Assembly: GCA_043813915.1 (NCBI GenBank)
Contig: JBDRKO010000012.1
Span: forward strand, 37,457-101,456
Direction of reading: 5' to 3'
Length of the DNA stretch: 64,000 nucleotides
Origin: Candidatus Omnitrophota bacterium
GTDB taxonomy: Bacteria; Omnitrophota; Gorgyraeia; Tantalellales; Tantalellaceae
In this document: positions 9,101-53,130 of the stretch, one piece after another
Layout of the letters: each line of letters begins with the position of its first letter
Position numbering within the stretch: position 1 is the stretch's first letter
Made by a program: the position numbers and the translations under genes
The notes under the pieces: model-generated
Databases searched by the model: none
What the model saw: the letters and a program-made list of their open reading frames with translations, nothing else
What the model was told of the DNA's origin: nothing

Positions 9101-12100
9101 TCTTTGCGGAAGATCCAGCCGGAAGAGGTCGCGGAATTCATACAACATTATGATGGTGCAACACGAGAATTGGAAAAAGACATGGCGTTGAATGATGAGG
9201 TTAAAGCGAGACTGGGATCATTCTGCAGGAAATATTTAGAGATAAAAGAAGAATTCATCCGATGCGGATATGCTCCGGAAGATGAATACATGGTCAAATG
9301 TTTTAACGGGGAGATAATAGCGGATATGTTCTATTTAGCGGAAAAAGACGGGTTCAATGTTTTGGATCTTCGCAGCAAAAACAGGACTAAATGGATGAAA
9401 GAAGAAAATGGCATAACGATCCATTATGAATTCGAAAAGGAAAAAGACAGATCCGTATCAATGTATGAAGTTGATCAGAATAAGCCAAGGCGTAAAATAG
9501 CTTGTTTCAATGAGTTTTCTTATTATTTGGACGATCTAGATGCGGATGGGGGGAAAAATCTTGGAAATTTTCTTACAAAAACCGTTTATTTTCTATTGTG
9601 GGCAAACAAAAAGCAGAAAAAAACAGAGTTTGTGATCAGCTTTGAAATAAGCGGCGCACTAAAAGAGTACTATATGACTACCGGAGCGCGGATAGGAAGC
9701 AGGACTGATTTCGGCGATGAGATAGCACGCGTGGATCTGGTCGGAGGATTAAGAGCCGGGATATTAACTCCGCAGCAGGCAAAAAGGATTAAAGATCCAA
9801 ATGGCCGTCATAGACTTAATCCCTTTATATGGCGCGTATGGAGCCAGAGAAAGCTGGACAGGTATTTCAGATTGACTAAGGCCATAGAGACAGAGAAACT
9901 CGTCGAAGCTAACCGGGCCTTTACGGAAGCGCGCGCGGCGACGGATATCGAGGATCTGCAGAAGATCCAGCCGGAAGAAGTCGCGGAATTTATAAAAACT
10001 TATTTAACGGAAAAAGTTAAAGAGGAAACGGACACAATTGTCTTCGCGCATGGTACGACAAAAGATGCTATTAGCAATCTTGATGCGGGTTTTTTGAAAA
10101 AAAAGCTGTCTTTTCAGGGAGGAAGGGTAGAAGATATTTTGCGCTTGATCGGGACACATATAGAGGGAAAACTGTATGGAGATGAAAAAGAAATGCTTAT
10201 TTACTGCTTAAGTGAACTGTTAGTCAATACTCATTTCAGGGGAAAAGAGACTATGGGTACCGAGGCGTATCTTTACGTGCCGGAGAAGCGGAGAGACCCT
10301 GGGGTATTAAAATTTGTTGTTTCACAGAAAGGCATTAGAGAGGAAAGATATTGGGGTATACTTAAAAAGACCGCTGCAAAATTTTCCCAAAAAGGCAATA
10401 AAGGGTATGAATATTTTATGGATGTCATACAACGTAAGAAAGATAGAACTAGGGTGGGGGATGGAAGCGCGCTTTTCTGGGTTGGCAGACTTATGGAAAG
10501 AACAAATGTTTACCTTGAATATACACGGAAAGGGGAGGAGATAATAACCAATATCTGGATCGACCTTGGCCCGCTTTTGGAGGGCGACGCTCATGACGAA
10601 CAAGGGAAAGAAACGGTTGTTTTTGCGCATGGGATGACAGAGGGCGATATTAATGTTTTTAAAAAGATCGAAGAAGAAAAAGAGCCTGTCCGCATGCCCG
10701 GGGCCGGACATGTTATTAACTTTGTACGTGCCGAGACCGGGAAAAACATTTGGCGGTCGAAATCGTATGCTTTTGGGGAGTGTCTGGGAGAATTGTTGAA
10801 CAATGCGTGCATGCGTGGAAATGGCGTGGTATCCAGCCACGCGTATGTGTATGAAGCCGGAGAACATAAAGAATATATATTGAGATTCAATATTTCACAA
10901 AAGGGTCTCAATGAAGAAGTCTATTGGCATCTACTTAAGAGAACTGCCAAAAATTTTGCGCAACAAGATAAGAAAGGACCCGCGTATCTTCAGGATACAG
11001 AAAAGCGTGAGCGGGAGGAGATAACAATAGGCGGCGGATCTGGTTTTAAGTTTGTCGGGAGACTTATGGAAGAAACAGATGTCTATCTTGAATATACGCG
11101 AAATGGCGAGAATATCGAGACTGATATATGGGTCAGACTCGAACCATTTTTAGGAGAGACGTTCGATGCCGGACAAAAAGAAACGACAATACGCGACTTG
11201 GCCGGAGAAATGATCATTAAAAAAATAACAAAGGCAAAGATCCAACAGGTCGACAGAAAAAGCCAGGAGCTAAGAACCCGACTTAAAAATTCGTGGGCGG
11301 TAATGCCGGAAGAGTCGCGAAAGACGCCGATAGATATAGTGATAGACCTGTCATTAGTGTCAAAAGAGGACCTTCAGGAAAACATCGAAACCTGGGCGTA
11401 TCTTTTCTTGCTACTGTTCAAACAGGAGAATGTGAATTTTGTTTTCGAAAAAGGCTCTGAAATTCTTAAAGGCGTACGTCTTTCCGAAGAATTGGCTAAC
11501 GATGTCGCTCAGGCGCCTGAGGTAGAAGATGTTTTGAGAGATCTGAAAGCGGCGATAAAAAAGAATGCTAAATTTTCTGATTTTCAATTGGAAGATGAAA
11601 AATTTGATAAGATCCTCGATAAACGTGTTAAGACTGTCCGTAGTGAACCGATTCTCCTCGAAAACCGGGAAAAACCGGAAAAACCGGTTGAGATAACGGT
11701 CACATCTCAAGAATGTTTAATATGGGCAAGTAAAAACGATAAACTTCTCGAGGAGAACCAATATCCCATTGCCATGGAGGGGTTTACGCTTAATGAAGCC
11801 GGAGGCGTTCCGCTTAGGAACTTTGAAGCCGCGGTGATGATAGGTTTTGCCAAGGCCTTGCTTGTTCTTGCCAAAAGAAGAGATATACGGAAAAAACCCG
11901 GAGAAGAGAGAGAACTTCCGCTGCTCAAGAAAAGACTTCTCAACCAGCTTAATGGGTTGTATAGCCTTTGTATAGACGATATTATCAGATTTACAGAGGA
12001 TACACTTGATTCTATGGTACATACTTCACCCATCGTAAGGCTGAATTTAGCAATTGATCTTGCGTTGTCGAAGATAACAAGAATGCCGGTGGGAGGCCTT

Positions 12101-12145
12101 ATTGAGCTTCACAGGGCAATACAATCTGCCCTTCAGGCGGCATAA
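158..12145 (+). CDS. Giant repetitive protein of unknown function, at least 3995 aa. The reading frame stays open, with no stop, from nt 2 to 157, so the gene may begin upstream of the window.
   Basis: It is an uninterrupted 12-kb ORF with coding-like composition. Internal protein repeats include RGSGFREIPGRK..ARLTDDRGIVWEEY (twice), SLFHEI.EYL..HYLLRILQRE (twice) and two roughly 150-aa tandem modules near the C-terminus. The N-terminus has no signal peptide. Confidence 0.75.
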   Translation: MIKENQSPSQVKQHMEEILQTKITKEVNEASDSTRFLPAQKLGKVLACIFKLGGKIDKATSKAFKLFSLELEPEGDSNTAHGEIIRSCFMSLPELTMQNPPVDPPVYKSQKGQRMKALSNIPGEAAAGILRLLKDAEPYKVLGRTIIYKTNEGYTAFKFLKKEQTLQPNGSYAEKREDSGKLVYESEIFDFLNTLKHEKRALQGDYPTAVKIGGERMFCIKTETVPGALSGTPGIDKTGGFCTFMAYETEDPDYFVYLHEEENDKKAEKAAEKNIHDLFFLAKYGLIHPDIIELFHNITAVPRDDEGKYLGMVDISRPIINRRGTGRLHGWEKEVTYPNMRISGAADFAELVNINDLISLDNGHSKYLRKNLYKMQEEKRVQHILAHFFSNYFLSWVLVEGKRLKQHGKIIKQDWKDADKVKKLGDRAKNIYIKAYKTFINSNGEDLEAIVDWDMLARQMLFYLGGAYKDYDIEDIPANIHGMQGLRISHGDGWGFIHEDIIKEATEKNDKERVLDEYFDNAVSSADREFPEGVLIFKPGFEELLGKEENKQLAGILGKLYKEYAKGWRLDGKHEDLGPINGPFPITELIKANYIYTMAMIGRYAYGSRLEKNPESQDPGVSVRGSGFREIPGRKTEYNDRGQIARLTDDRGIVWEEYFYKEEGVFEAVDLYNPVTGKRIRCEPDKAPQKRPEYAKILIKIEEKNGQFRQVGDMNINADSKALFCVANIQLPETGEEKTRGKGIGKTVLRWIDMQAYRQSKPLEIEQAVNPVMAHIAGTLYEVSRLKITVGDKSYSDIHEEEELRNLLFERTYLLSLPGDFTYLTVGKGSDEVSIERVYNSRTGQLVKDNKLPPGYDYKIDKEKKRLIITDPKGNPARLEYFPGITFVGLPDVGKIVKTQEMENDQRVKGQGSGDRVKGPGFREIPGRKIEYNDRGQIARLTDDRGIVWEEYQYRDDGTIDYVSLHNPVTGRTIKCEYKGYPGGIPGNQKWVISREVEENGPVPIGKLIIQEGQDAATGQRYIRQSNLSIRDKDDRNKGISKTVKIWFALRAYRESKVLKFAAIWSPLSAKIDIGVCDISSLRISKEKSARSGGKLIVFSDGEDLKRQLLEQEFYFQGPTGLVRISVEPGTQEIVTTTNWPKEYTREIKDGELVVNDENGERISIRYEDSFYFEGLPDVKKIVGVQDVEESQGSSPSASLGTRESPAAAGSPLAEKSQSSGSNGPGKTEIERINIEELRELITGIHEYIIRPGSPYALESGLCLSTNVVLYRTIKNIRTIKNEIIKNGGTRGRVAADMPEPKAEICRKQIGAEEHWFLLVDSDFVVDIFPNYTGRRTGLHKTVIVMTKKEAEELNGWYKNAEQSKMNNHTLENIRRMESEMAKTGADIALREWLDTQIDRRMRVEKIKDEKDTAQMMKKTNTVETDPEKVFIGNLKGLMTGFYGTFVGERSIYRAFERGDKGIDLSLLRLFAKISGKVPELNVELCYSDNAETKYWYLLVNSRIIVSMYPPEEFNSEWIVMTEEDAALESKLYDRKNRNKITGTTVFERARKRWDNPAMEEYEPMVDELIEKWLKYRVNNIGSPAKEKESIRNGHSNPRDTSENFRNIGKVYDDNMDIAVTQTSEKEAQLEVTAYNARNQKEETFHLNASIHGPPTKEQKQRITDTAKKEHKSLIATILSLFPDDIPLYILTDPLKEDLFGFASIKNKFIALHRTIKDDPVALFHEIGEYLIRVPSLVSRVSRLQLELDEKNRLTVTINGERQEPVVLSEATLKFIEDEKMEGEWGPNWQTSQHYLLRILQREVFGKADETLTEKIIDGQMTARMEKEGSRAEPWGPIKVNGLSIYAKEVIKPSEIRKTLDIWFDGKEERYFLREQWEKAINAAIKRARPAFLVKIESQEGELMGISYCHKGLFPFEEGEADIYIGDFSEIPGKYRGKGLGEVIMAKGMERMVSAHRDGIDREEIYVGHPAEHDEEEYADKGKRAERFLYQLGFNDICFSWFETLSQEDKAKSRFMGISAYKAQGLVNRVKGMIGGTRKTISKPKQMKLFPQAPEQLKLFPEVSSTSGENIAELEKARKKAVRIKRKLKKKKITDKQLSLFQREKGPENTGLGEDMLKKTLEEQGVDINRVSEFLADFSKNIKEEKKNTFLIQLADCFRESKKTRLGTKLEIMEPYLSDVMDSLQIKMDMANFHFTINHGTTSVGYMAESVNIKNEYHDFTIYLIEEEIDKTYTVNLLVDIDKCLATQPRLADAIMKLCDDRGTTIGIAKQAANNKKGTEGRINGIATRSKDGERQLIVLPLYDVNGEKIGYEKPAGYAYDADVLIDGRRVTRLEAILSHEIAYLFLRRTQKSQKWILKVDQKRIKKFTEKHSEIEWDIKRYEENMEEGLFELVFEIYGMRAERINAEFDFRSLSLEEKETVLKKTFVSAESSFNVHEFFADTLAAYWLVPEFVKEKDRIMFDLFEAIGVWKDIEKGARTDDENNVTDPPGRIGKYYTEIIADDEPGENRWIVKAMRHGASKEAAIDLGRTFRAPPVDDEVKTEIRDAVDSRDASRKTAYKELVKEILEQFPQKTVLYIYKNLYRDLFGFNDVSKKMMALYRELYDDKKTRPVSLFHEICEYLGTLKVIGIRARGDKLFVRIKGRETEVDVRRARKSLKEDGEDWINWTEQEINKPENRHYLLRILQREIFGEKDELLTKKIKDLGERGYRRSAETDTKKAGMATLDQMIRELARDMDITGMENEIKVFYEKYIRLAMRVPVGGQILLSSIRAEHIADMFYLKKAYQFDLFELLEGKRETKWVKRDGAVTDEYVFYNRNDGTYVNKVSEAGKKTFLGKATDGRFGLEDRAHDGGRNIGNFRIKTFSLNKWFQKTEGEMSLNIDRGKDTNDPYALCRYYETIGAHVDWRLLSGSMLITGGLDAGISTKKETERIEGLEKYVRNVWSQRKRDRYFRLTKDIETARLAEANQAFTDAHMDVDIDSLRKIQPEEVAEFIQHYDGATRELEKDMALNDEVKARLGSFCRKYLEIKEEFIRCGYAPEDEYMVKCFNGEIIADMFYLAEKDGFNVLDLRSKNRTKWMKEENGITIHYEFEKEKDRSVSMYEVDQNKPRRKIACFNEFSYYLDDLDADGGKNLGNFLTKTVYFLLWANKKQKKTEFVISFEISGALKEYYMTTGARIGSRTDFGDEIARVDLVGGLRAGILTPQQAKRIKDPNGRHRLNPFIWRVWSQRKLDRYFRLTKAIETEKLVEANRAFTEARAATDIEDLQKIQPEEVAEFIKTYLTEKVKEETDTIVFAHGTTKDAISNLDAGFLKKKLSFQGGRVEDILRLIGTHIEGKLYGDEKEMLIYCLSELLVNTHFRGKETMGTEAYLYVPEKRRDPGVLKFVVSQKGIREERYWGILKKTAAKFSQKGNKGYEYFMDVIQRKKDRTRVGDGSALFWVGRLMERTNVYLEYTRKGEEIITNIWIDLGPLLEGDAHDEQGKETVVFAHGMTEGDINVFKKIEEEKEPVRMPGAGHVINFVRAETGKNIWRSKSYAFGECLGELLNNACMRGNGVVSSHAYVYEAGEHKEYILRFNISQKGLNEEVYWHLLKRTAKNFAQQDKKGPAYLQDTEKREREEITIGGGSGFKFVGRLMEETDVYLEYTRNGENIETDIWVRLEPFLGETFDAGQKETTIRDLAGEMIIKKITKAKIQQVDRKSQELRTRLKNSWAVMPEESRKTPIDIVIDLSLVSKEDLQENIETWAYLFLLLFKQENVNFVFEKGSEILKGVRLSEELANDVAQAPEVEDVLRDLKAAIKKNAKFSDFQLEDEKFDKILDKRVKTVRSEPILLENREKPEKPVEITVTSQECLIWASKNDKLLEENQYPIAMEGFTLNEAGGVPLRNFEAAVMIGFAKALLVLAKRRDIRKKPGEERELPLLKKRLLNQLNGLYSLCIDDIIRFTEDTLDSMVHTSPIVRLNLAIDLALSKITRMPVGGLIELHRAIQSALQAA

Positions 12146-43512: not shown

Positions 43513-44835
43513 ATGAAAAGATTTATTTGGTCACAGCTACTTCATTGGAAAGAGAAAAAAGACCGGAAACCTCTTATTTTAAGAGGTGTTCGTCAAGTTG
43601 GGAAAACATACATACTCCGTTCTTTTGCTAACACTTACTTTTCAAATGTTCATTATGTAAATTTCGAAAAAGAGGAACAATTGATCTCAATATTTGACAC
43701 TGATCTTTCGCCTGTACGGATTCTAAAAGAATTAAGTTTTCATTTGGGTCGATCTATTGATAATAAAAATGACATTATGATCTTTGATGAGATCCAGAAC
43801 GCACCCAAAGCTCTTACCAGCCTGAAATACTTTTATGAAGAAATGCCGGAAATGGCCATATGCTCGGCAGGTTCATTGCTGGGACTTCACTTGGGAGCTG
43901 AGGCATTCCCGGTAGGTAAAGTAGATTTCCTTGAGTTATATCCCTTTTCTTTTGCCGAATTTTTAAGAGGTGTCGGTGACCAAAAATCTTATACTTTTCT
44001 CAGGGATTTTAAAAAGGGACAAATTATCTCGGACCATATACATAAACATTTATGGGAACAACTAAAATTGTATTTCGTTGTAGGCGGCCTTCCTGAAGTC
44101 ATTAATACCTACTCTTCACATAAAGATAATTTATTCTCCGCGCTAGAACTAGTACGAAAAAAACAGAAAGAGCTTATTGTAGCTTATACCGCGGATATGG
44201 CAAAACATTCCGGAAAGCAGAACGCCATGCACTTAGAGCGCTTATTTAGGAACATACCTGCCCAACTTGCCAAAGAACAGGACTTTTCAGTTTCCAGGTT
44301 CAAGTTTAAGGGAATAATTCCCGGTATTAACAGATATTCAAAGCTGGCAGGTTCAATTGATTGGCTGATTAACGCGGGATTAATTATCAAATCCAACATA
44401 GTAAACCACTGTGAACTTCCCTTCTCTGCTTACACAAAAGAAAATTTCTTTAAACTTTATCTTTTTGATCCGGGTATTCTTGGTGCCTTGAGCGATCTTC
44501 CCTCTAAAGCTATCTTGGACTACGATTATGGCTCATATAAAGGATACTTCGCTGAAAATTATGCCGCTTGTGAATTCAAATGCTTTGAAGGCAAAGACCT
44601 TTATTCTTGGCAGGAAAACACCGCGGAGGTGGAATTTTTAAGAGAAATAGATGGTTCCATTTTTCCCATTGAAATCAAGTCGGGGAACATAACCCAGGCA
44701 AAAAGCCTTAAAGTGTTTGCGGACAAATATGATCCGCCATACCGCACTGTAATGAGTGGGAAAAAACCACTTTTCGATGATATAAATAAAATTCACAAGT
44801 ACCCTTTATACCTAGCTTCGCGTTTTCCTGTTTGA
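43513..44835 (+). CDS. AAA+ ATPase with a C-terminal DUF4143-like domain.
   Basis: It has the Walker A motif GVRQVGKT and a Walker B motif IMIFDEIQ. Confidence 0.7.
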   Translation: MKRFIWSQLLHWKEKKDRKPLILRGVRQVGKTYILRSFANTYFSNVHYVNFEKEEQLISIFDTDLSPVRILKELSFHLGRSIDNKNDIMIFDEIQNAPKALTSLKYFYEEMPEMAICSAGSLLGLHLGAEAFPVGKVDFLELYPFSFAEFLRGVGDQKSYTFLRDFKKGQIISDHIHKHLWEQLKLYFVVGGLPEVINTYSSHKDNLFSALELVRKKQKELIVAYTADMAKHSGKQNAMHLERLFRNIPAQLAKEQDFSVSRFKFKGIIPGINRYSKLAGSIDWLINAGLIIKSNIVNHCELPFSAYTKENFFKLYLFDPGILGALSDLPSKAILDYDYGSYKGYFAENYAACEFKCFEGKDLYSWQENTAEVEFLREIDGSIFPIEIKSGNITQAKSLKVFADKYDPPYRTVMSGKKPLFDDINKIHKYPLYLASRFPV

Positions 44836-44906
44836 GATCATAAGATCCAAAAGGGCATATGTTTTAGCAAAAAGAAAAAACCCCCACGATTAGTGAGGGT
44901 TCATTC

Positions 44907-44923
44907 AGATTGGCTGGGATGCC
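44907..44923. repeat. Direct repeat of the tRNA-Gln 3' end (17 nt, TGGCTGGGATGCCTGG), a candidate att site.
   Basis: It is identical to 45103..45119 and 52314..52330. Confidence 0.7.
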
Positions 44924-45102
44924 TGGCCGATTCGGACTATGATGCTTCTGTTCGTCGCATCATTTACGCCCTTATCGGCATTTCCTTGCGCCTTTGGCGC
45001 TCGGTCAGACTCGGCGTTACATTAATTTCATATTATTTTCGCCATCGTCCACTTACACAGACCAATAAACAAAAAACCCCTCTAACGAGGGGCATTTTGT
45101 TT

Positions 45103-45121
45103 ATGGCTGGGATGCCTGGAC
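45103..45121. repeat. Direct repeat of the tRNA-Gln 3' end (19 nt), a candidate attR of the integrative element.
   Basis: TGGCTGGGATGCCTGGACT matches the tRNA-Gln 3' end at 52314..52332. Confidence 0.75.
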
Positions 45122-45216
45122 TATCAGCTAGGCTTTCCCAAGTCCTTTAGTCACTTGTGATTGTAAACTTTCTTTAAATTTTTGGACAGTTTTTGGTCAG
45201 TTTCTAGTGAAATAGA

Positions 45217-47994
45217 TTATGCCTGCTGCAAATATAGTTGTTCTAATTCGTGGAATTCCTGAGCTCCATCAACAGCTTTAAACGCAGGTGGAAGTGCGTA
45301 TGTATCTACATAATACAATTTAGCCTTTGAGCAACCGTTAACCATTAGTTCAAGCTCCTCAACCGAAAACTTACTCTTTCCTTCTATCAAATTTACGCCA
45401 TATCTCTCATAAATCTCCGTGAACTTATCCATTGTTTCGCCCCTAAGCTCTTCATATTCTTCCCATTCCCTGCTTTCCTTATCTTTTACCACTGATCCCT
45501 TTTTTTGTTTTTCCGGCACCTTATCCCACGCAACACGAAGAGCAGCCAAGGATGCGCCCATAACTGCCGCAGCAGTATAATTGGGAACTGCAACTCCCTG
45601 CTTTGTGCTAGCATCCTTAAGCGCGACAACATATTCTCTATCGTCAATAATCCTATCCTTCGTAATATCGTCCAGGTTTTCCAACCTTATGTCAATCAAC
45701 CCATCTCCGGCTTCCGCCCTTGTATGTAATTTAAAGACGCTTTCAATTTTATCGTTCGGGAATTCATCAATATTTCTTAGTTCATTTTTTACTAAGTCAA
45801 TAACCCTTGCGGCATCTTTACCTTTAAACCCATATCTCATATTTAATCCATAAGCATTATTTCGTGTGATTATAAGTGCTAACCTTTTTATGTTTTGTTC
45901 AAGCTGCTCCTGTTTTTCTGGAAGACTTGTTAGATCTATATACATATTTGTCGGCTGATTTTGAAGAATTCTAGATGTTCTTGTTAATAAATATCTTTCA
46001 TCGTTGTTTTCTGGTTTAATTATTGTTGATTTCATATAATCTGTTTGTTTTTCTATTTTCCTATCAACAATTTCCTTATATCTGTTAGCTAATACTTTCC
46101 ACGTTTTTTTAGATCTTTCATCAGTATATAAGGGTAAATACTTGGTCTCTCTAAAATCTGGTTCGCCAAAATATTTGTTTCTAATATTTTCTAATTCAAG
46201 CCCTAATTCCTTTACTCGCTGTGTCAGGTTTGGCACCTTTTGCCGAGCCATAATATTTTCTATATTTCCCCATATTCCTTCATCAGCATTTTCCCATCTT
46301 CGCTGGCTAACAATTTGGAGAATATTTCTGGTTTGATTGGCTAAAACAATGGTAGTTCTAATAGACTCTGTTTCTTCAGGCGTAATAAACGATTCCAAAC
46401 GAGATATAATTTCATCAAAATCTGGTCCAAAATTTATGCCAAACTTATTTGACAACCCAAAGATTAGATTTGAAATACCTCTAAACTGCAATTTTTTAAT
46501 ATTTTTAATATCAAGTGGTAATTGAGAGGGTTTTCCTTGCCATACCTGTAATTGCCTGCATAAATAGGGATGCACTTCTGCCCACATGCCGTCCAGATCT
46601 AAATGAGATTCAACATCTCGATTAAAAACTTCACTATATGAGCCTTCATTAATTTCAATTATTTGTCCCATTGCAAAATAATGATAAATGTCAAAATCTA
46701 TACGTCTATTTTCTATCTCATTTCCCATCAATAATGTAGACCACAAATCTCGTTTAAAACCAAGCGAAAATAATAATTCCGTAAGCATAAGATTTACTTT
46801 GTCTGGCTGTGGCCCCCAGTAATACAGGTCAACATCTGAAGAGAATGTTTTCATATCTCGGAAATAGATTACTGCAGAAGAATCAGAAGAAACTCCTAGT
46901 TCGTTCCAAACTACTGGCAACAATTGATTAATAACCTTTTCAACAAATGTATTGGACCCTAAAGCAACTTCTTTATATATTACATCAAAGGATTTTTCTG
47001 ATAATATCAATTTTTTTTGCTTGTTTCTCAATTCTTCATATTCTCTTTTTAATGTAGCCAAAATGTCCGTCTTGCCCTGTCGAGTTATTGTTGAATTTTG
47101 CTGTGTTGTAGTAATAGTACTATTAGTGTTCTCCATTCGTACAATATTTTTGTATGAGGATAAATCTTCCCCAAGTAATTCAACGGACATATAACCTAAA
47201 ATGTCTGAAATATGATAGCACGCTGTCCAAGGATTTGTTGGATCGATCCCTAAATTTAACAGAACATCAATTAATCTACATAAAGACTGCTTTTTAACCC
47301 CATTATTAAATAATTCCAAAATGGTAGACACTACTGCGTTATCTGGTGAATCGATAGCCTGTTGCCATAAATTGCGAATTAACAAACTCTCTTCATCCTG
47401 GGGAAACTTTGATATCTTTCCACTTATATGTTTAGTAATCCAGTTTTCATATTTTTTAGTTTTTGCTATTTTATTAATGCAAATTCTATCGTTTTCTTGA
47501 CAAACATTCCCCCAGTTTAATTGTTCCATTGGCAAATGCTCTCTTAACACAGCATCTTCAACACTTATGTCTCTTCCTGCTTGCTTTTTAGTATCCGTTC
47601 TTTCCTCTGTTTGCGTATCATTATATTCAATCTCAAAAATAATATTTTCCTTCCCAATTACGTAAAAATTTGCCCTTACAGAATTTTTATCTCTTTGAAC
47701 CTCTGAAAGAAATTCTATGTTGGCCTTCCCCTTTTCAATGCCTTGTTCATGATCTTCGATTAATATTCCGTTAACAGTTGAATGCGATTTCCCGGCCAGA
47801 AGAAGTCTTACGCCTGCAAGTATTTCAAATTGTGTTTGAAGGGACATTTCAATACCTGCATCTACCAAGGCACTGAACCCTGACTGAGGAGAAAGGGTGC
47901 TCCACATATCTCCATAGACTGGATTGGATGCAAAAATGGCTCCTGCTAACAGTATAGATATTAATTTCATATAGAATTTTCTCGTAATAAACAT
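45217..47994 (-). CDS. Hypothetical 925-aa protein with an N-terminal signal-peptide-like segment (MKLISILLAGAIFASNPVYG); the start may be at 47970.
   Basis: It is a long ORF with no recognisable family. It is terminated by the bidirectional hairpin CCCCTC-taac-GAGGGG at 45066..45095. Confidence 0.7.
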   Translation of the reverse strand: MFITRKFYMKLISILLAGAIFASNPVYGDMWSTLSPQSGFSALVDAGIEMSLQTQFEILAGVRLLLAGKSHSTVNGILIEDHEQGIEKGKANIEFLSEVQRDKNSVRANFYVIGKENIIFEIEYNDTQTEERTDTKKQAGRDISVEDAVLREHLPMEQLNWGNVCQENDRICINKIAKTKKYENWITKHISGKISKFPQDEESLLIRNLWQQAIDSPDNAVVSTILELFNNGVKKQSLCRLIDVLLNLGIDPTNPWTACYHISDILGYMSVELLGEDLSSYKNIVRMENTNSTITTTQQNSTITRQGKTDILATLKREYEELRNKQKKLILSEKSFDVIYKEVALGSNTFVEKVINQLLPVVWNELGVSSDSSAVIYFRDMKTFSSDVDLYYWGPQPDKVNLMLTELLFSLGFKRDLWSTLLMGNEIENRRIDFDIYHYFAMGQIIEINEGSYSEVFNRDVESHLDLDGMWAEVHPYLCRQLQVWQGKPSQLPLDIKNIKKLQFRGISNLIFGLSNKFGINFGPDFDEIISRLESFITPEETESIRTTIVLANQTRNILQIVSQRRWENADEGIWGNIENIMARQKVPNLTQRVKELGLELENIRNKYFGEPDFRETKYLPLYTDERSKKTWKVLANRYKEIVDRKIEKQTDYMKSTIIKPENNDERYLLTRTSRILQNQPTNMYIDLTSLPEKQEQLEQNIKRLALIITRNNAYGLNMRYGFKGKDAARVIDLVKNELRNIDEFPNDKIESVFKLHTRAEAGDGLIDIRLENLDDITKDRIIDDREYVVALKDASTKQGVAVPNYTAAAVMGASLAALRVAWDKVPEKQKKGSVVKDKESREWEEYEELRGETMDKFTEIYERYGVNLIEGKSKFSVEELELMVNGCSKAKLYYVDTYALPPAFKAVDGAQEFHELEQLYLQQA

Positions 47995-48173
47995 AGTTTT
48001 GACATTATACTACTTTTATCTTGTTAGTGCAATAGAAAGTATGTAGCTTTTTCCCTCTTAATTACAATTATCTCTATAGAAGGGAGCTGAGAGTCTTTGA
48101 ATCCCGGCGGAAAGCCCTAAACCCTTGTTAGCTAAAAGACTTAAGGCTTACGCCTGTACATCAATTGTACCGT

Positions 48174-49256
48174 TTATTCTTCTTTCTTCTCTTTTTCGTA
48201 GCTAAATGCCTTAAATCGTTCATGTAAATAATCCGGCCTTAGATGTCTATATCTGCGTGTCATTGATGCGCTCTTATGGCCCAAGACCTCCTGAATGGCT
48301 GTTTCTGGTATATCCCTCATATGAGCAATAGAGCAAAAAGTGTGTCTCAGTGAGTGCACATGAACCTCTTTGATCCTTGCCTCCTGACAGCATTCTTTTA
48401 CTTTTTCCAACACCCTACGATTATTAATTACATGTCCTTTCGTTGTCTGAAACAACAGTTCTCCCTCTGTCAGCATTTGGTCTTCTATAATATTTTTTAT
48501 TTCATCGGCAATAGGGGCATATCTGTTCTCTTTATTTTTCGGGTGCCACTCTTTGCCGTCTACTTCTTTCCCGCGGATATACAATAGCGATCTTGCTAAA
48601 TCTACATCATCCTTAGTTAAATGAAGCACTTCGTTGACTCTCATACCTGTAAATAGTATCGTTGCTACGATTTCAAAATAAGGCACTTTATAATCTTTTT
48701 CTTTCATCTTTTTCAGAAGCAGAATAGCTTCTTCTTCTGTTAGATTTTCGACATGTGGTGTTGCCACTTTCTTTGGGGATGTAGCTACTGTGGGATTATT
48801 ATTAGTCCACTTGCGCGCTATAGCATATCTGAACAGGTTAGAAATTACCATCCTCTCCATGTTCCAGGTTCTCCTGGCTATCCCTCTTTCTGTCCGGGAA
48901 TAAAGGTACTCTTCTATCATGCCTGTGTTAATGTCGCTAATATTGCTCACCTTTTTTATTTCAGCAAACTCCTGAAACATCTTTATTATGCCCTGGTACC
49001 TTCTCTTAGATTCTCTTGTAGTAAGATCTGTATCAAACTTACTTCGCAGATAGCTTCTAACTACCATCTTAAAATCCGCTCCCTGCACATATCCGTCTTT
49101 TCTTTTTTGCGCTCTCTGCAACTGATTATCTTTTGCCATACGCTCTGCTTCAGATTTATTGTATGATAAGAATTTCCATACAGCTTTACCAAATTCAGTA
49201 GGACGTATGTAATATCCCTTACATCCTGCCCTGGTAACAATCTTTAATTTCTTCAT
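48174..49256 (-). CDS. Tyrosine-type site-specific recombinase (integrase).
   Basis: Its C-terminal catalytic motifs are HSLRHTF and GH...MTRRYRHL with the catalytic Tyr. The N-terminus is a SAM-like domain. Confidence 0.9.
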   Translation of the reverse strand: MKKLKIVTRAGCKGYYIRPTEFGKAVWKFLSYNKSEAERMAKDNQLQRAQKRKDGYVQGADFKMVVRSYLRSKFDTDLTTRESKRRYQGIIKMFQEFAEIKKVSNISDINTGMIEEYLYSRTERGIARRTWNMERMVISNLFRYAIARKWTNNNPTVATSPKKVATPHVENLTEEEAILLLKKMKEKDYKVPYFEIVATILFTGMRVNEVLHLTKDDVDLARSLLYIRGKEVDGKEWHPKNKENRYAPIADEIKNIIEDQMLTEGELLFQTTKGHVINNRRVLEKVKECCQEARIKEVHVHSLRHTFCSIAHMRDIPETAIQEVLGHKSASMTRRYRHLRPDYLHERFKAFSYEKEKKEE

Positions 49257-49495
49257 ATTAAGCGCCTCCTGTTATTATCAACCTTAAAATCTTTCATCAC
49301 ATCTTCTGGGTCAAATCTTAATGCATTACCTATCTTGATGTATGAAATAAGATTTTGCGAGGTCATCCTGTAAAGTTTTGATAACTTGATCTGGTACATC
49401 TCACAGATTTCCTTTGCTGTAAGATACTGTTTACTTAAGTACTTATTACTCATTTTCTTAATATCCTTTTTTGTATCTATGTCTATTAGGCACAC
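49253..49495 (-). CDS. Helix-turn-helix excisionase/AlpA-like DNA-binding protein.
   Basis: It is 80 aa with the HTH YLTAKEICEMYQIKLSKLYRM. Its stop overlaps the integrase start. Confidence 0.6.
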   Translation of the reverse strand: MCLIDIDTKKDIKKMSNKYLSKQYLTAKEICEMYQIKLSKLYRMTSQNLISYIKIGNALRFDPEDVMKDFKVDNNRRRLI

Positions 49496-50558
49496 TTTAC
49501 CCTAGAGCTATAAGTCGCCCGAGAATTCATAAAATCCCCGTTGTGCCTAGTTTATAGACGCACGAATAGCCTCTATAGTTGCAAAACATAAGCAACTACA
49601 CTTAACTATTGTTAATGATTATGGTTAGATTTTTGTCTGGCAAAGAAAAGGTAGGATTCTCTGCATAAACAATAAAAATAGAGGTCTTATGTAAACGACC
49701 TCTTTCGGGTGTGTTTTTTCTTGATATAACTAAGTAACTTTCTTAGCTTCACTATTATTATATCACTGAAATACGGTTTTTTCAACCACCCCACAAAACC
49801 CCTACCCCGTGGGCGTTTGCTCTCCAAAAAAGCAACTACCAACATCTTTCCTGTCATGACCTTAACTTTCATGCGACCACTCTCCTTTCTTTTGTGAACG
49901 TTTAATTATGTTCACTAATTGTTGATTTTCTTATAGAAAGAAGAAGAACCGGTGCTAAAAGGCACATGGGGCACGAAACAGGAACAACTAGAATATGCTA
50001 ATCGTATATAGGACCTCAGGAATTTTCCAGGATATATTCTTTCTAATGGAGTTTAGTTTTTACTGTTTGATTTTATTTTCAGCCTTTTATAAATTCTCCG
50101 GTTTTGTCTGTTAGTATATAAGTGTAAGACAAGGAAAGAGTGGAGGACAGTGATCGGCAAGATCAAGATGGTAGTGACGACAGTCACCTCATCAACATGA
50201 GGCGTTCGCAAACAGTGATTTTACACTTATGATGTTACGGGATATTTTATCTATTTTTTATGATTAGCGAACGACCCACGCAGGAACAAATATGTAGGCC
50301 TATTTGAGCAAATGGTGAAATTAGGTATGGCTTCCATAATAAACTACAAGGCATCCATAGGAGAACATGAAAGAATATCTTATACCCGATAATAGGCCAT
50401 CTAAGAAGCTAAATAGGCTTCCAATGGCTTCTAAGAAAACATGTCATATTCGCATAAGGAATGTTGTTCTGCCGCCAAACTTTGGAAAGATAGCTATGGA
50501 TTTACACGCGCGGAGAATAAATCATCAGGTGATTGATGTGAAAGAGAAGACGGAACAC

Positions 50559-52046
50559 TTATTCGGAGCTAATTGATCCTATTATTCCAGATAAAAAAAT
50601 CTGATCTCGTGCTTTCTTTTTTAATTCATCGCTGGGGTTTGCGTAAACCTTTTTACATATGTCAAACAAAACTCTCGTATCGAGAAGACCTATGCTTGCT
50701 TCCCTTGCACCTTCCAGCGCAGCAGGATCTGAGTAAAAATTTCCTCTGTTATTTGGAGCTTTATCTCTCTGATAGTTTAGGATTAGAAGTCCTGGTGGTG
50801 ATACATTTTTGATAAGCTTACTATATCGAAGCATATGATTTTTGACTTGCTCCACATATTCGTTACATGGTCCCCGGGTAACACCTTTTGCCTCACATAA
50901 GATTTCTTTGCCGTCCGCCTTCAGTATAAAATCATTGATTAAAGCCTTATCTTCTTTCTCTAGCATCGCATCCATGTCAACAACTTCAAACCCTAACCAT
51001 TCTAGTGTCTTTTTTAATGGTGGTTTTAACTTTTCTTCCTCGTCAACCTTGTCATCATCTCCGTTAGTCAAAAGAGCTCTAAAATGTTTAGAGTTTTCTC
51101 TAGCACTACTGCGTTTAGATTCTAGGTCTTCTATTTTCCCATTAAAGGTTTCTCTTACTTCTTTTTTCTCATTGATAATTCGTATTTCGTCCGAAAATTT
51201 ATACGTCTCTGTATCAAGCCAAAGGCCTTCTTGATAATCCTTACTAAATAGAGCTTCGGGAGATAGCGCAGGTAGCTCTCTAAGAATATGTTTTATTATA
51301 TTTATGTTGACCGCTTTAAAGTCTGGGAAAAACCCAACATTCCCACCATTCGGTAAATGACAAAAATAACTATGTACTAAGGTATTTTCTCCCAGAGCAA
51401 AAAACTTATCGCCTTCACCTATGTGGTCTTTTACGCAATTAAAATGCATTCCCCTTAACAGGTCAACAGAATGCCCTAATGCACCTGTCATAAGCTGTTC
51501 TATATAATTTCCTACGGCTTCGACTTTTGGTTCTGTACGAAAGAATAGATCATACTCCTCGTCCGTATCCCCTTGCGTATAAGTTATCTTCCCTCCTTTG
51601 ATGTCTAGTAGTTTCTTTACCAACAAATCATCTTCTTCAATCCTTGTCTCGCCCATAAAAACTAACACTGTCCCATTTTTTTTCAAAACTTCTGTCCCCA
51701 AACTGTATAATCCTTCCAGGCCACAACATGAGTCACTGTTACGTTTTGGAAAGCCACATATTAAACCGTGAGACTTATAAGAATATTTCTTGTATTCACA
51801 AAATGAGTTTATGCGAACTGATTCTTCGGCATCAGATGGAACTGTTGGCATGTTGTAACAACTCCTATACGCAACAATATCCACCCGGTGTGGATCTGTC
51901 GGAATATTTAATAAATCTCCGTTTAGACCAGTAGCTCCTAAATGAACTTTGTAGCCATAGTCCCTTAAAGTTTGTGCCTCTGTCGGACTAAAATCGATTA
52001 GGAGTATTCTTGGACGTATAGTTTTTTCTATATTAAAAATCTTCAT
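50559..52046 (-). CDS. Hypothetical 495-aa protein. Its C-terminal region may carry a PD-(D/E)xK-like nuclease signature (D..EAK).
   Basis: It is a long ORF in the island. The C-terminus reads DFILKADGKEILCEAKG. No family is recognised. Confidence 0.65.
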   Translation of the reverse strand: MKIFNIEKTIRPRILLIDFSPTEAQTLRDYGYKVHLGATGLNGDLLNIPTDPHRVDIVAYRSCYNMPTVPSDAEESVRINSFCEYKKYSYKSHGLICGFPKRNSDSCCGLEGLYSLGTEVLKKNGTVLVFMGETRIEEDDLLVKKLLDIKGGKITYTQGDTDEEYDLFFRTEPKVEAVGNYIEQLMTGALGHSVDLLRGMHFNCVKDHIGEGDKFFALGENTLVHSYFCHLPNGGNVGFFPDFKAVNINIIKHILRELPALSPEALFSKDYQEGLWLDTETYKFSDEIRIINEKKEVRETFNGKIEDLESKRSSARENSKHFRALLTNGDDDKVDEEEKLKPPLKKTLEWLGFEVVDMDAMLEKEDKALINDFILKADGKEILCEAKGVTRGPCNEYVEQVKNHMLRYSKLIKNVSPPGLLILNYQRDKAPNNRGNFYSDPAALEGAREASIGLLDTRVLFDICKKVYANPSDELKKKARDQIFLSGIIGSISSE

Positions 52047-52313
52047 ATCTTAGATTATACAACTAACTCCCGATAGTCTCAAGCTACAAAAGAGTTATAC
52101 TCAAACTGGCTTCATTTGTCCAATCTATTTTCCTTATTTACCTGTACAACAATTGGACAGTTTTGGACAATTTGTACATGTTTTGTACAGTATTACCAGC
52201 AAATGGAAACAACTACCCACAACTAAAAGAAAAAGCCCAAACCCTTGATTTACAAAGATTTGAGCTCTTTCTTTTTTGTTTTTATGGGCTTCTGGAAATA
52301 CCCAAAAAGATCT

Positions 52314-52388
52314 TGGCTGGGATGCCTGGACTCGAACCAGAAACGGATGATCCAGAGTCATCTGTGTTACCAATTACACCACATCCCA
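52314..52388 (-). tRNA. tRNA-Gln (anticodon CTG).
   Basis: The reverse complement folds as TGGGATG/CATCCCA acceptor, D-arm GTGT..ACAC, anticodon stem GATGA-CTCTGGA-TCATC, and T-arm TCTGG-TTCGAGT-CCAGG, with discriminator G and CCA. Confidence 0.85.
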
Positions 52389-52395
52389 GCGTGAT

Positions 52396-52647
52396 TTATT
52401 TAATTGATTCTCGCAGTATTTGTCTTAAACTGCTTCTTCCTTTCGTTGTCTTAAAATACCGTTCTCTTCTCAAGCTATCTTTTTTATCAAAAAATGCTTC
52501 ATAAAATACTAACTCCGGGTCTTTCATTCTGCTGCTTGTATGGCCTTCACCCTTCTTATGTTCCGTTATTCTTCTCTCTATGTTCCCGGTTGATCCTATG
52601 TAAAACTTTTCACTTTCCTTACTCCGCAGTACATACACATAATGCAT
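52396..52647 (-). CDS. Small stand-alone GIY-YIG nuclease-family protein.
   Basis: The N-terminus HYVYVLRSKESEKFYIGSTGNIERRITEH contains GIY..10..YIG and the conserved Arg. An AAGGA RBS precedes it. Confidence 0.8.
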   Translation of the reverse strand: MHYVYVLRSKESEKFYIGSTGNIERRITEHKKGEGHTSSRMKDPELVFYEAFFDKKDSLRRERYFKTTKGRSSLRQILRESIK

Positions 52648-52719
52648 TTTTTATACATCCTTGATCCAGCCCAGAACCGCTTAGGGTTCTGGGCTACCCG
52701 GCATCCTTTGTGGTGCCGG

Positions 52720-52791
52720 GCAGAGTCATCTGTGTTACCAATTACACTTGCCGTATACCCCACGAGGTATGCGGCCACATCCCAGCGTGAG
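52720..52791 (-). pseudogene. Duplicated 5' half of tRNA-Gln (acceptor through anticodon stem), carrying a 28-nt hairpin insertion in the D-arm.
   Basis: Nt 52720..52750 and 52779..52791 match 52355..52394. The inserted ttgccgtataccccacgaggtatgcggc forms the hairpin CCGCATACC/GGTATACGG. Confidence 0.75.
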
Positions 52792-53080: not shown

Positions 53081-53105
53081 GCCGTATCTAGATCAAAGCT
53101 AATGA

Positions 53106-53130
53106 ACCCTCACTAATCGTGGGGTTTTTT
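53106..53130 (+). terminator. Intrinsic terminator CCTCAC-taatc-GTGGGG plus T6. An inverted, near-identical copy lies at 44876..44906.
   Basis: The sequence is aatgaaccctcactaatcgtggggtttttt. The reverse complement of 44876..44906 is ctgaatgaaccctcactaatcgtgggggtttttt. Confidence 0.6.

What the first reader, a model, noticed from the sequence alone, without database searches (positions are those of the whole stretch)
45217..52046. Island cargo: a 925-aa signal-peptide protein and a 495-aa protein with a possible PD-(D/E)xK nuclease core, neither assignable to a known family
The only substantial cargo of the integrase element is two large orphan proteins, on the same strand as int and xis. The 495-aa protein ends with a D...EAK arrangement (DFILKADGKEILCEAKG) that is reminiscent of restriction-endonuclease-fold nucleases. 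The 925-aa protein has an N-terminal hydrophobic leader and a possible nucleotidyltransferase-like GS...DxD stretch (SSDVDLYYW). Cargo of this kind on integrative elements is frequently defence or anti-defence machinery. This pair could be an undescribed system.
Basis: inference. Interest (0 to 1): 0.65.

Follow-up and report, generated by a model that had tools for sequence, protein, structure and literature searches.

The report
Two unrelated passengers on one island
A small mobile island inserted next to a tRNA gene of an Omnitrophota bacterium carries two real but unrelated genes: a stand-alone DNA-cutting enzyme of a new family, and an exported modular enzyme from a large undescribed family that appears restricted to this phylum. 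They are not a two-gene system.

Summary
They lie on a 7.2-kb tRNA-Gln island (45104-52332) with xis and int between them. Neither protein matches Pfam, NCBIfam, PADLOC, PHROGs or PDB sequences, but neither is an orphan.

The 495-aa protein belongs to a family of about 30 stand-alone genes. It has a new N-terminal alpha/beta domain, a long helix and a C-terminal restriction-endonuclease-fold domain. D359, D372 and E385 are conserved throughout the family. K387 is kept only in the close clade.

The 925-aa protein has three modules. A leader plus N-module and a C-module at the very C-terminus recur in at least 36 proteins of 600-4800 aa, around swappable enzyme cassettes. A giant ORF in this same window carries the C-module too. 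The cassette here holds an invariant DxD and basic residues. Its resemblance to nucleotidyltransferases is weak.

The two genes do not travel together. Of 18 other loci with a 495-type gene, one has a family member nearby, about what chance predicts. A related island carries the 925-type cassette without the nuclease.

The nuclease guess is supported and defence is plausible for that gene alone. The "pair as a system" reading is not supported.

The parts
52314..52388 (-). tRNA-Gln (CUG), the integration target. Its last 19 nt (52314-52332) are attL.
   Evidence: ARAGORN; Rfam tRNA 60.7 bits; repeats
45104..45122 (-). attR: a 19-nt exact copy of the tRNA 3' end, marking the far end of the 7.2-kb island
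   Evidence: family D2
50559..52046 (-). 495-aa stand-alone nuclease gene, with no hydrophobic segment
51261..52019 (-). 495-aa protein, aa 10-262: new alpha/beta N-terminal domain with invariant R11-P-R13, D18, D139, E220 and P241-D242. No informative fold match.
51066..51191 (-). 495-aa protein, aa 286-327: one long helix linking the two domains
   Evidence: AF2 DSSP
50598..51026 (-). 495-aa protein, aa 341-483: Mrr-like restriction-endonuclease-fold domain. Catalytic candidates are D359, D372, E385 and K387 (motif at 50886-50933).
52054..52082 (-). Promoter-like site (11 of 12 matches) 8 nt upstream of the 495-aa ORF. The consensus match is suggestive only, and the site count in the region is not above chance.
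49496..50558 (.). About 1 kb with no ORF over 69 aa, no Rfam match and no similarity to the related island. Probably the regulatory or recombination region of the element.
49253..49495 (-). Excisionase-type HTH_17 protein (xis)
   Evidence: Pfam 2.3e-9 and TIGR01764 3.2e-7
48174..49256 (-). Tyrosine integrase, 48% identical to the integrase of the related element in L003
45217..47994 (-). 925-aa exported modular protein gene
47455..47994 (-). 925-aa protein, aa 1-180: hydrophobic leader (aa 7-28) plus the family N-module (TLxxQSxF, FEIxAGxRLLLAGK, VNG)
   Evidence: module HMM 4.7e-60
46030..47454 (-). 925-aa protein, aa 181-655: enzyme cassette (M-module). Invariant residues are R379, K382, D387, D389, Y392, G394, D416, K500, R556 and Q560; R566 and W567 are kept in 90% or more of sequences. 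The DxD region is at 46813-46860.
45220..46029 (-). 925-aa protein, aa 656-925: family C-module, a Rossmann-like alpha/beta domain that always lies at the extreme C-terminus (PNYxAA, GLSLAALR, MVxG, YALPP, ...LQAA)
   Evidence: module HMM 1.5e-86
45076..45093 (-). Terminator-like hairpin just beyond attR
11318..12142 (+). C-module at the C-terminus of a chromosomal giant ORF (at least 3995 aa) in the same window. A paralogue that shows the family is native to this genome.
   Evidence: hmmsearch 2e-23; BLASTP 1e-4

Best explanation
The interval is the cargo of a 7.2-kb integrative island inserted into the 3' end of tRNA-Gln in a Candidatus Omnitrophota genome. Xis and a tyrosine integrase sit in the middle. 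The two passengers are independent and lie in separate transcription units.

(1) The 495-aa protein is a cytoplasmic, stand-alone endonuclease. A new N-terminal alpha/beta domain and a long helix are joined to a C-terminal Mrr/restriction-endonuclease-fold domain whose D359, D372 and E385-x-K387 would bind metal and cut DNA. I infer that the N-domain senses or binds a target and gates the nuclease. The gene would then act as a single-gene restriction-like or defence module that travels on islands.

(2) The 925-aa protein is exported through its N-terminal leader. It belongs to a large family, so far found only in Omnitrophota. In this family a shared leader plus N-module and a shared C-module at the very C-terminus bracket interchangeable enzyme cassettes. 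The cassette here is a roughly 470-aa enzyme with an Asp triad and basic residues, most likely a phosphoryl- or nucleotidyl-transferase. I infer that it acts outside the producer's cytoplasm, on the envelope or in a host or prey cell.

Shown: the gene models, the island anatomy, the module architecture, the conserved residues, the REase fold and the lack of co-occurrence. Inferred: nuclease activity, defence role, export, cassette chemistry and site of action.
For: Island: tRNA-Gln; 19-nt direct repeats; int and xis; a GC trough between GlnRS and the tRNA. The source is a Candidatus Omnitrophota MAG.

495-aa protein:
- 11 homologues plus 15 metagenome loci.
- D359, D372 and E385 are conserved in 26 sequences; K387 in the 14 close ones.
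- The AF2 model (pLDDT 77) has alpha-beta-beta-beta-alpha-beta at aa 341-425.
- Foldseek against BFVD: 3 hits at E<=1e-3, headed by 'Restriction endonuclease', followed by Mrr, PD-(D/E)xK and Hjc entries. Against PDB: Hjc at prob 0.96, plus Avs4, Can2 and EcoO109I.
- No conserved neighbour.
- It sits beside a tRNA and/or an integrase remnant in the window, L006 and L014.
- Its neighbours include Mrr_cat x2, ApeA, PD-T4-6, PDC-S02 and PDC-S58.

925-aa protein:
- 117 relatives at the 50% cluster level, in three separable modules.
- 36 proteins have both the N- and the C-module.
- All 65 full C-module hits end within 20 aa of the C-terminus.
- 46 of 50 N-module proteins carry a hydrophobic leader.
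- Cassettes in other members are APH kinase + methyltransferase, deaminase + HD, HAD + radical SAM, and PPDK-like.
- A chromosomal giant ORF in this window ends in the same C-module.
- All 4 hits in GTDB genomes are Omnitrophota.
- AF2 pLDDT is above 90 for the cassette, and the invariant charged residues are listed.
- The related island L003 has xis-int (48% identity) followed by a 54%-identical cassette protein and no nuclease.
Against: - There is no biochemical evidence for any activity.
- The defence role rests only on fold, single-gene habit and neighbourhood. PADLOC has no model for the protein, and many neighbours are housekeeping genes.
- The distant clade lacks the Lys of ExK.
- The nucleotidyltransferase reading is weak: Foldseek E=0.1, no G[GS] motif, hhalign against kanamycin nucleotidyltransferase prob 0.1.
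- Export is inferred from one hydrophobic leader, without a signal-peptide predictor.
- The N-module model is poor (pLDDT 30-60).
- Only two islands and about 18 contexts were seen, most on short contigs.
- In L012 a family member lies 1.9 kb from a 495-type gene.
Confidence: 0.6

Rival explanations
1. The two genes form one undescribed two-component defence or anti-defence system. For example, the exported or nucleotidyltransferase-like protein would signal to or modify a target, and the nuclease would be the effector.
For: The two genes share an island and a strand. In L012 a 1362-aa protein with the N- and C-modules lies 1.9 kb upstream of a 41%-identical 495-type gene.
Against: - The genes are separated by xis, int and 1 kb of non-coding DNA, and the 495-aa gene has its own promoter-like site.
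- All-against-all comparison of neighbours in 18 loci finds no shared partner.
- L001, L005, L006, L009, L010 and the P0009 and P0010 contigs have no family member nearby.
- The L003 island has the cassette but no nuclease in 21 kb.
- The L012 protein lacks the M-cassette.
- The family is dense (2 genes in this 64-kb window), so one adjacency in about 7 close-clade contexts is what chance predicts.
- One partner is exported and the other cytoplasmic.
Confidence: 0.06
2. The 925-aa protein is not an effector acting on another cell. It is a membrane-anchored or periplasmic enzyme working on the cell's own envelope, or a surface-display protein. The N- and C-modules would be anchoring or assembly domains, as in the multi-enzyme long proteins of Omnitrophota.
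For: There is a single N-terminal hydrophobic segment. The same C-module sits on a chromosomal giant ORF. Omnitrophota long proteins are reported to carry methyltransferase, HAD, HD and radical SAM content, and 94% have a TM helix or signal peptide; their topology and role are debated (10.64898/2026.06.07.730766; 10.1101/2023.11.21.568195).
Against: The cassettes in the family (kinases, SAM methyltransferases, radical SAM, PPDK-like) need ATP, SAM or reductant. These are not expected outside the cytoplasm, by established biochemistry. No lipobox, sortase-type signal or C-terminal TM helix was seen.
Confidence: 0.3
3. The 495-aa nuclease serves the element itself rather than defence. It could act in junction resolution, replication initiation, or addiction by cutting island-free chromosomes.
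For: The best PDB fold matches are Holliday-junction resolvases. The gene lies on islands next to integrase genes or remnants in the window and L006.
Against: Most family members sit in contexts with no integrase or replication genes. The related L003 element manages without it. A 340-aa N-terminal extension is not a resolvase feature.
Confidence: 0.12

Closest known systems
Mrr-type (type IV) restriction endonucleases and other stand-alone PD-(D/E)xK nucleases with a sensor domain (e.g. Shedu, and the nuclease domains of Avs4 and Can2)
   Same: A single gene in which an N-terminal non-catalytic domain is joined to a C-terminal restriction-endonuclease-fold domain with D...ExK. It has a patchy distribution and is found on islands.
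   Different: There is no Pfam Mrr_cat, DUF4263 or PADLOC match. The N-terminal 260-aa alpha/beta domain and the long linker helix match nothing informative. The distant clade has lost the Lys.
Archaeal Hjc Holliday-junction resolvases (2wiw, 2wcz, 1gef)
   Same: These are the best solved-structure matches to the C-domain core (prob 0.96, TM about 0.46 over about 90 residues).
   Different: Hjc is a 120-130-aa dimeric protein with no extra domains. E is only 0.04 and identity 15%.
Kanamycin nucleotidyltransferase ANT(4') and minimal MNT-type nucleotidyltransferases (Pol-beta superfamily)
   Same: A helix-strand-loop-DxD-strand arrangement, a later invariant Asp and a helical C-terminal part. 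They are the best meaningful PDB fold hits (6un8, 6nmk, 6p06 at prob 0.9; MntA 6m6u).
   Different: The G[GS] motif is replaced by (Y/F)FR, and the spacing to the DxD is shorter. The module is twice as large. The profile comparison is negative.
Multi-enzyme 'long' and giant proteins of Omnitrophota (West-Roberts et al. 2023, bioRxiv 10.1101/2023.11.21.568195; 2026 bioRxiv 10.64898/2026.06.07.730766)
   Same: The same phylum. An N-terminal signal or TM helix is followed by strings of methyltransferase, HAD, HD, radical SAM and kinase domains. Function is unknown. The C-module also ends a protein of at least 3995 aa in this window.
   Different: The passages I read in those papers describe proteins of 10,000 aa or more and do not mention a shared N-module or C-module. 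The family here spans 600-4800 aa, and one member rides on an integrative island.
Secretion substrates built as signal peptide + variable passenger + conserved C-terminal domain (T9SS CTD proteins, autotransporters)
   Same: The same overall logic: a leader at the N-terminus, a variable middle and a conserved domain at the extreme C-terminus.
   Different: The C-module is a 270-aa Rossmann-like alpha/beta domain plus helices. It is neither a beta-sandwich CTD nor a beta-barrel. No secretion system has been linked to it.
tRNA-targeting integrative islands with a tyrosine integrase and excisionase
   Same: Integrase, excisionase, a direct repeat that rebuilds the tRNA 3' end, and low GC.
   Different: None of note: the backbone is ordinary. 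It is small (7.2 kb), has no replication or transfer genes, and int is not next to an att site.

Membership tests
PD-(D/E)xK (restriction-endonuclease-fold) nucleases - 495-aa protein | alpha-beta-beta-beta-alpha-beta core | tested here: met
   AF2 DSSP: H341-350, E354-357, E372-377, E380-389, H395-412, E419-425; pLDDT about 80-85
PD-(D/E)xK (restriction-endonuclease-fold) nucleases - 495-aa protein | Asp at the start of strand 2 and (D/E)xK on strand 3, conserved in the family | tested here: met
   D372, E385 and K387 are invariant in 12 sequences. D372 and E385 are kept in all 26; K387 is replaced by T/S in the distant clade.
PD-(D/E)xK (restriction-endonuclease-fold) nucleases - 495-aa protein | Structural similarity to established members | tested here: met
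   BFVD Foldseek: 'Restriction endonuclease' at E=9.5e-5, prob 1.0, plus many Mrr, PD-(D/E)xK and Hjc entries. PDB: Hjc at prob 0.96 but E=0.04.
PD-(D/E)xK (restriction-endonuclease-fold) nucleases - 495-aa protein | Match to a curated sequence model (Mrr_cat, PDDEXK_x, DUF4263) | tested here: not met
   No Pfam or NCBIfam hit, only Bax1 at E=0.022. The PDB profile search found nothing.
PD-(D/E)xK (restriction-endonuclease-fold) nucleases - 495-aa protein | Metal-dependent nuclease activity | not testable with these tools
   Needs purified protein and active-site mutants
Known anti-phage defence systems - 495-aa protein | Match to a defence-protein model | tested here: not met
   PADLOC: 0 families at E<=1
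Known anti-phage defence systems - 495-aa protein | Enrichment in defence islands | tested here: inconclusive
   The 48 neighbours include Mrr_cat x2, ApeA, PD-T4-6, mad6, PDC-S02 x2 and PDC-S58, but also MutS, AnmK, GH3 and transport genes. No background rate was computed.
Two-gene system (495 + 925) | Conserved co-occurrence of the two families | tested here: not met
   No shared neighbour in 18 loci. There is one loose adjacency (L012). The L003 island lacks the nuclease.
Two-gene system (495 + 925) | Adjacent genes in one operon | tested here: not met
   2.6 kb apart, with xis, int and 1 kb of non-coding DNA between them. There is a separate promoter-like site.
Pol-beta-superfamily nucleotidyltransferases - 925-aa protein, M-module | hG[GS] motif before the catalytic strand | tested here: not met
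   The family consensus is y-F-R-x-x-K-t-x-a-S-D-l-D. No conserved G or S at that position.
Pol-beta-superfamily nucleotidyltransferases - 925-aa protein, M-module | [DE]x[DE] at the start of strand 2, plus a third carboxylate | tested here: met
   D387 and D389 are invariant just before strand 390-393. D416 is invariant 27 residues later. Assigning D416 as the third carboxylate is inference.
Pol-beta-superfamily nucleotidyltransferases - 925-aa protein, M-module | Fold or profile similarity to established members | tested here: inconclusive
   Foldseek to ANT(4'): prob 0.9, E=0.1, TM 0.38-0.42. hhalign against the ANT(4') sequence: prob 0.1. One family member hits GlnD_UR_UTase at E=0.023. 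No PDB profile hit.
Omnitrophota N/C-module family (defined here) - 925-aa protein | Hydrophobic leader plus N-module at the N-terminus | tested here: met
   Module HMM E=4.7e-60 at aa 14-181 of the stop-to-stop ORF, which starts 5 codons upstream of M1. 49 of 50 hits are in register with the N-terminus and 46 of 50 have a leader.
Omnitrophota N/C-module family (defined here) - 925-aa protein | C-module at the extreme C-terminus | tested here: met
   Module HMM E=1.5e-86. All 65 full hits end within 20 aa of the C-terminus.
Omnitrophota N/C-module family (defined here) - 925-aa protein | Restriction to Omnitrophota | tested here: inconclusive
   4 of 4 GTDB hits are Omnitrophota MAGs, but the scan used two short peptide patterns. 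The 117 representatives carry no taxonomy.
tRNA-integrating tyrosine-recombinase island | Integrase + excisionase + direct repeat of the tRNA 3' end + deviant composition | tested here: met
tRNA-integrating tyrosine-recombinase island | Ability to excise | not testable with these tools
   Needs reads or PCR across attB and attP junctions

The most novel reading that the evidence does not exclude
The 925-aa protein would be a small, island-borne member of an undescribed 'cassette-carrier' system of Omnitrophota. A common leader plus N-module and a common C-terminal alpha/beta module would act as export or delivery handles. They would carry interchangeable ATP- or SAM-dependent enzymes (kinases, methyltransferases, radical SAM enzymes, deaminases, the DxD enzyme here) out of these ultra-small predatory or episymbiotic cells and into host or prey cells. 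Integrative elements would spread new cassettes. The same handles on proteins up to 4800 aa would then explain how at least some of the phylum's puzzling long multi-enzyme proteins are routed.
Probability: 0.2. Interest if true: 0.75.

Novelty: new variant of a known kind. Interest (0 to 1): 0.42.

Why it matters
The finding as posed, a new two-gene defence system, does not hold. Two useful leads remain.

First, there is a compact single-gene nuclease family with an intact restriction-endonuclease core and an N-terminal domain that matches nothing. It is found on tRNA islands and near defence genes. It is a cheap candidate for heterologous phage-challenge tests.

Second, there is a handle on the long multi-enzyme proteins of Omnitrophota. 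Their function and topology are openly debated (10.1101/2023.11.21.568195; 10.64898/2026.06.07.730766). A leader plus N-module and a C-terminal module recur on proteins from 600 to 4800 aa. That gives two conserved, well-modelled, clonable domains whose partners could be sought. The 925-aa member is small enough to express.

Tried and rejected
- **Word-indexed homology search.** It found only 2 relatives of the 925-aa protein, even with a 54-sequence profile. The exhaustive HMMER search found 117. The third capped search was therefore wasted.
- **MAFFT alignments mixing N-module fragments with full proteins** misplaced the N-fragments (A2, A3). I left them out of the structure job, so the N-module was modelled from a single sequence and came out poor.
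- **Profile searches against PDB sequences** gave nothing for the 495 family, the M-module or the C-module.
- **hhalign of the M-profile against kanamycin nucleotidyltransferase** was negative.
- **PHROGs and IMG/VR** gave no hits for either protein, so a phage origin is not supported.
- **Rfam** over the island found only the tRNA.
- **Autotransporter or T9SS-type C-terminal domain** for the C-module: rejected, because the model is alpha/beta with helices and not a beta-barrel or beta-sandwich.
- **CARF-nuclease (Can2/Card1) architecture** for the 495-aa protein: considered, because Can2 and Cdn1 appear among the PDB hits. The matches cover only about 100-170 columns at TM 0.13-0.15, so this stays an analogy only.
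- **Exact-sequence look-up of the source contig** failed.

Full report
**What is at the coordinates**

The window has ORFs of 925 aa (45217-47994) and 495 aa (50559-52046), both on the minus strand. Between them, on the same strand, lie a tyrosine integrase (48174-49256; Pfam Phage_integrase 8.5e-27) and an HTH_17/excisionase gene (49253-49495).

A tRNA-Gln(CUG) lies at 52314-52388 on the minus strand. Its last 19 nt recur exactly at 45104-45122, and a 16-nt core recurs again at 44911-44926. That is three copies against 0.03 expected by chance.

GC falls to 0.33-0.39 inside the repeats, against 0.46-0.49 in the flanks. The flanks encode GlnRS, GluRS, pyruvate:ferredoxin oxidoreductase subunits and DXP synthase.

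This is a 7.2-kb integrative island in the 3' end of tRNA-Gln. The order from the tRNA is: 495-aa gene, about 1 kb without ORFs, xis, int, 925-aa gene, attR. An identical copy of the 495-aa protein is on record from a Candidatus Omnitrophota MAG.

**The 495-aa protein**

It matches no Pfam, NCBIfam, PADLOC or PHROGs model. The only trace is Bax1 endonuclease at E=0.022 over aa 307-391. A family profile finds nothing among PDB sequences.

It is not an orphan:
- 11 homologues were found: 9 at 41-50% identity over the full length, and two at about 25%.
- A metagenome scan added 15 loci, including a distant clade at 25-30% identity.

In the 12-sequence alignment D359, D372, E385 and K387 are invariant. 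Across 26 sequences D359, D372 and E385 persist, while K387 becomes T or S in the distant clade.

The AlphaFold model (12 sequences, pLDDT 77) has three parts:
- an alpha/beta domain at aa 13-261;
- a single long helix at aa 286-327;
- a C-terminal domain with the order helix, three strands, helix, strand. D372 opens strand 2 and E385-x-K387 lies on strand 3.

This is the canonical PD-(D/E)xK arrangement, by established knowledge of that superfamily.

Foldseek against predicted viral structures gives three hits at E<=1e-3. The list is headed by 'Restriction endonuclease' (9.5e-5, prob 1.0), followed by Mrr-domain, PD-(D/E)xK and Holliday-resolvase entries. Against the PDB nothing reaches 1e-3. 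However, Hjc resolvases (prob 0.96, TM about 0.46), Avs4, Can2 and EcoO109I recur.

I accept the nuclease fold. The N-terminal domain has no informative match. The protein has no hydrophobic segment.

**Context of the 495 family**

All-against-all comparison of neighbours across 18 loci finds no gene shared between loci other than the nuclease itself. It is a stand-alone gene.

- Three loci place it beside a tRNA and/or an integrase remnant: the window, L006 (tRNA-Arg plus a 123-aa integrase fragment) and L014 (tRNA-Lys).
- Among 48 neighbours, some match defence or defence-candidate models: Mrr_cat x2, ApeA, NA-iREase1, PD-T4-6, mad6, PDC-S02 x2 and PDC-S58.
- Others are plainly housekeeping: MutS, AnmK, GH3 and solute-binding proteins.

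I did not compute a background rate, so this is suggestive only. My best reading is a single-gene, sensor-coupled endonuclease with a restriction-like or defence role. The activity and the role are both inferred.

**The 925-aa protein**

The word-indexed search found two partial relatives. An exhaustive HMMER search of 1.84 billion cluster representatives found 117.

Mapping the matched stretches shows three separable modules:
- **N-module, aa about 30-180.** It lies at the N-terminus of other proteins, behind a hydrophobic leader.
- **M-module, aa about 180-650.** It occurs alone (480-560 aa) or inside larger proteins.
- **C-module, aa about 655-925.**

The positions are strict. All 65 full C-module hits end within 20 residues of the protein's C-terminus. 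49 of 50 N-module hits are in register with the N-terminus, and 46 of those 50 have a hydrophobic leader. 36 proteins have both modules. The proteins that carry the C-module range from fragments to 4824 aa.

The middles differ between members: APH kinase + methyltransferase; cytidine-deaminase/MafB19-like + HD; PPDK-like; a weak GT9-like hit. The M-cassette itself also sits between a HAD domain and a radical SAM domain in one 1258-aa protein that lacks the N- and C-modules.

The 925-aa protein is therefore one member of a family with constant ends and swappable enzyme cassettes.

The family is native to this genome. The ORF at 158-12145 is at least 3995 aa, probably runs off the window, and has no Pfam domain. 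It ends in the same C-module (HMM 2e-23, BLASTP 1e-4).

A pattern scan of GTDB species genomes found four C-module loci, all in Candidatus Omnitrophota MAGs. Neither family was found in IMG/VR.

**Structure and chemistry of the 925-aa protein**

The AlphaFold model (23 sequences, pLDDT 80, pTM 0.67) is confident for the M-module (above 90) and good for the C-module. It is poor for the N-module, which had no alignment depth.

Invariant M-module residues are R379, K382, D387, D389, Y392, G394, D416, K500, R556 and Q560. R566 and W567 are kept in 90% or more of sequences. D387-x-D389 sits immediately before strand 390-393, which follows a long helix and strand 374-379.

The best meaningful PDB matches are kanamycin nucleotidyltransferase ANT(4') (prob 0.9, TM 0.38-0.42 over about 299 columns), with MntA and CCA-adding enzyme further down. 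But E is about 0.1 and nothing reaches 1e-3. Other tests add little:
- The G[GS] motif that defines the superfamily is absent; the family has (Y/F)FR.
- A profile comparison with the ANT(4') sequence is negative.
- One family member touches GlnD_UR_UTase at E=0.023.

I therefore call the cassette 'a DxD enzyme, possibly of nucleotidyltransferase fold' and rate membership as inconclusive.

The C-module is a four-stranded Rossmann-like alpha/beta unit followed by helices. It has no significant match. This excludes a beta-barrel or beta-sandwich secretion domain.

**Are the two genes a system?**

No, on present evidence.
- They are 2.6 kb apart, with xis, int and 1 kb of non-coding DNA between them.
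- The 495-aa gene has a strong promoter-like site 8 nt upstream of its start. The 925-aa gene follows int after 180 nt with no terminator-like site between them (the promoter count in the region is not above chance).
- The one related element found (L003) has xis-int (48% identity), then a PMT_2-like membrane protein, then a 54%-identical M-cassette protein with a leader. It has no 495-type gene anywhere in 21 kb.
- Conversely L001, L005, L006, L009, L010 and two contigs without DNA carry 495-type genes with no N, M or C module nearby.
- The single exception is L012. There a 1362-aa N+C protein without the M-cassette lies 1.9 kb from a 41%-identical 495-type gene at a contig end. With two family genes in this 64-kb window, one such adjacency among about seven close-clade contexts is what chance predicts.

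**How the 925-aa protein most likely works**

The leader has basic residues before a hydrophobic stretch. In relatives this stretch ends in ...WA|YPD. By the positive-inside rule, this predicts export or an N-in anchor with the bulk of the protein outside.

The cassettes in the family mostly need ATP, SAM or a reductant. By established biochemistry these are not expected outside the cytoplasm. That argues for action inside another cell. Omnitrophota are reported as ultra-small predatory or host-dependent bacteria (abstracts of 10.1101/2023.11.21.568195 and PMC10066038).

The alternative is an envelope-associated role, as discussed for the phylum's long multi-enzyme proteins. Their topology is openly debated (10.64898/2026.06.07.730766). 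I cannot separate these two readings with the tools at hand.

**Verdict**

- The nuclease guess is supported.
- The nucleotidyltransferase guess is weakly supported.
- The 'pair as an undescribed system' reading is not supported.

What remains is a new stand-alone nuclease family (a new variant of a known kind) and a pointer to an undescribed modular family in Omnitrophota. The second could matter more than the original claim.

Noticed in passing
window 52395-52790 (-): Just upstream of tRNA-Gln lies an 83-aa GIY-YIG ORF (52396-52647; Pfam 5.7e-17; PHROG homing endonuclease). Before it is a second, partial copy of the tRNA's 5' half: 16 nt plus 27 nt, both 100% identical, ending exactly at the anticodon CTG and interrupted by a 27-nt hairpin. 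About 70 nt of strongly structured RNA follow. It looks like a mini GIY-YIG cassette that inserted at, or duplicated, the tRNA 5' half. Rfam finds no intron.
   Followed up: partly
window 43202-44931: A decayed second element sits behind a third att copy (44911-44926). It consists of the last 38 codons of an integrase (43241-43354, 79% identical to the intact one) and an intact AAA_14/DUF4143 ATPase on the opposite strand (43513-44835). The ATPase matches the PADLOC defence candidate PDC-S01 at 1e-129. A 190-bp remnant lies between the second and third att copies. The tRNA-Gln site has been used repeatedly.
   Followed up: partly
window 158-12145 (+): A giant ORF of at least 3995 aa, open to the window's start. 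It has no Pfam domain at E<=1e-3 but ends in the same C-terminal module as the 925-aa protein.
   Followed up: partly
window 44876-44905 and 53101-53130: A 30-nt terminator-like hairpin occurs twice in inverted orientation at 97% identity. One copy is just beyond the third att copy. The other is 700 nt on the far side of the tRNA. This may be the trace of an inversion or of a second tRNA-proximal junction.
   Followed up: no
L003 1-17470: The related element carries an AEP-primase/DnaB_C helicase gene, several zinc-ribbon ORFs and xis-int. A row of proteins of 563, 344 (methyltransferase), 431 (P-loop) and 780 aa follows. Each starts with a hydrophobic leader followed by a shared (A/T)LR(P/L)P-type motif, which suggests a common export or processing signal.
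   Followed up: no
P0014 (L004 637-2535) and L003 13369-14664: In P0014 the M-cassette is fused to a P-loop, uridine-kinase-like domain (GISGSGKTT). In L003 it lies three genes from a separate P-loop protein (GDARVGKT). This hints at a linked kinase step.
   Followed up: no
method note: The word-indexed protein search returned 2 relatives of the 925-aa protein, and the exhaustive HMMER search 117. It did not return the query itself, which suggests the 925-aa ORF is absent from that collection or is called differently in the source annotation.
   Followed up: no
window 53302-56957 (+): The low-GC stretch continues past the tRNA. It holds a 256-aa TPR protein with a leader and a 961-aa leader-bearing protein with no Pfam match. 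They were not examined further.
   Followed up: no
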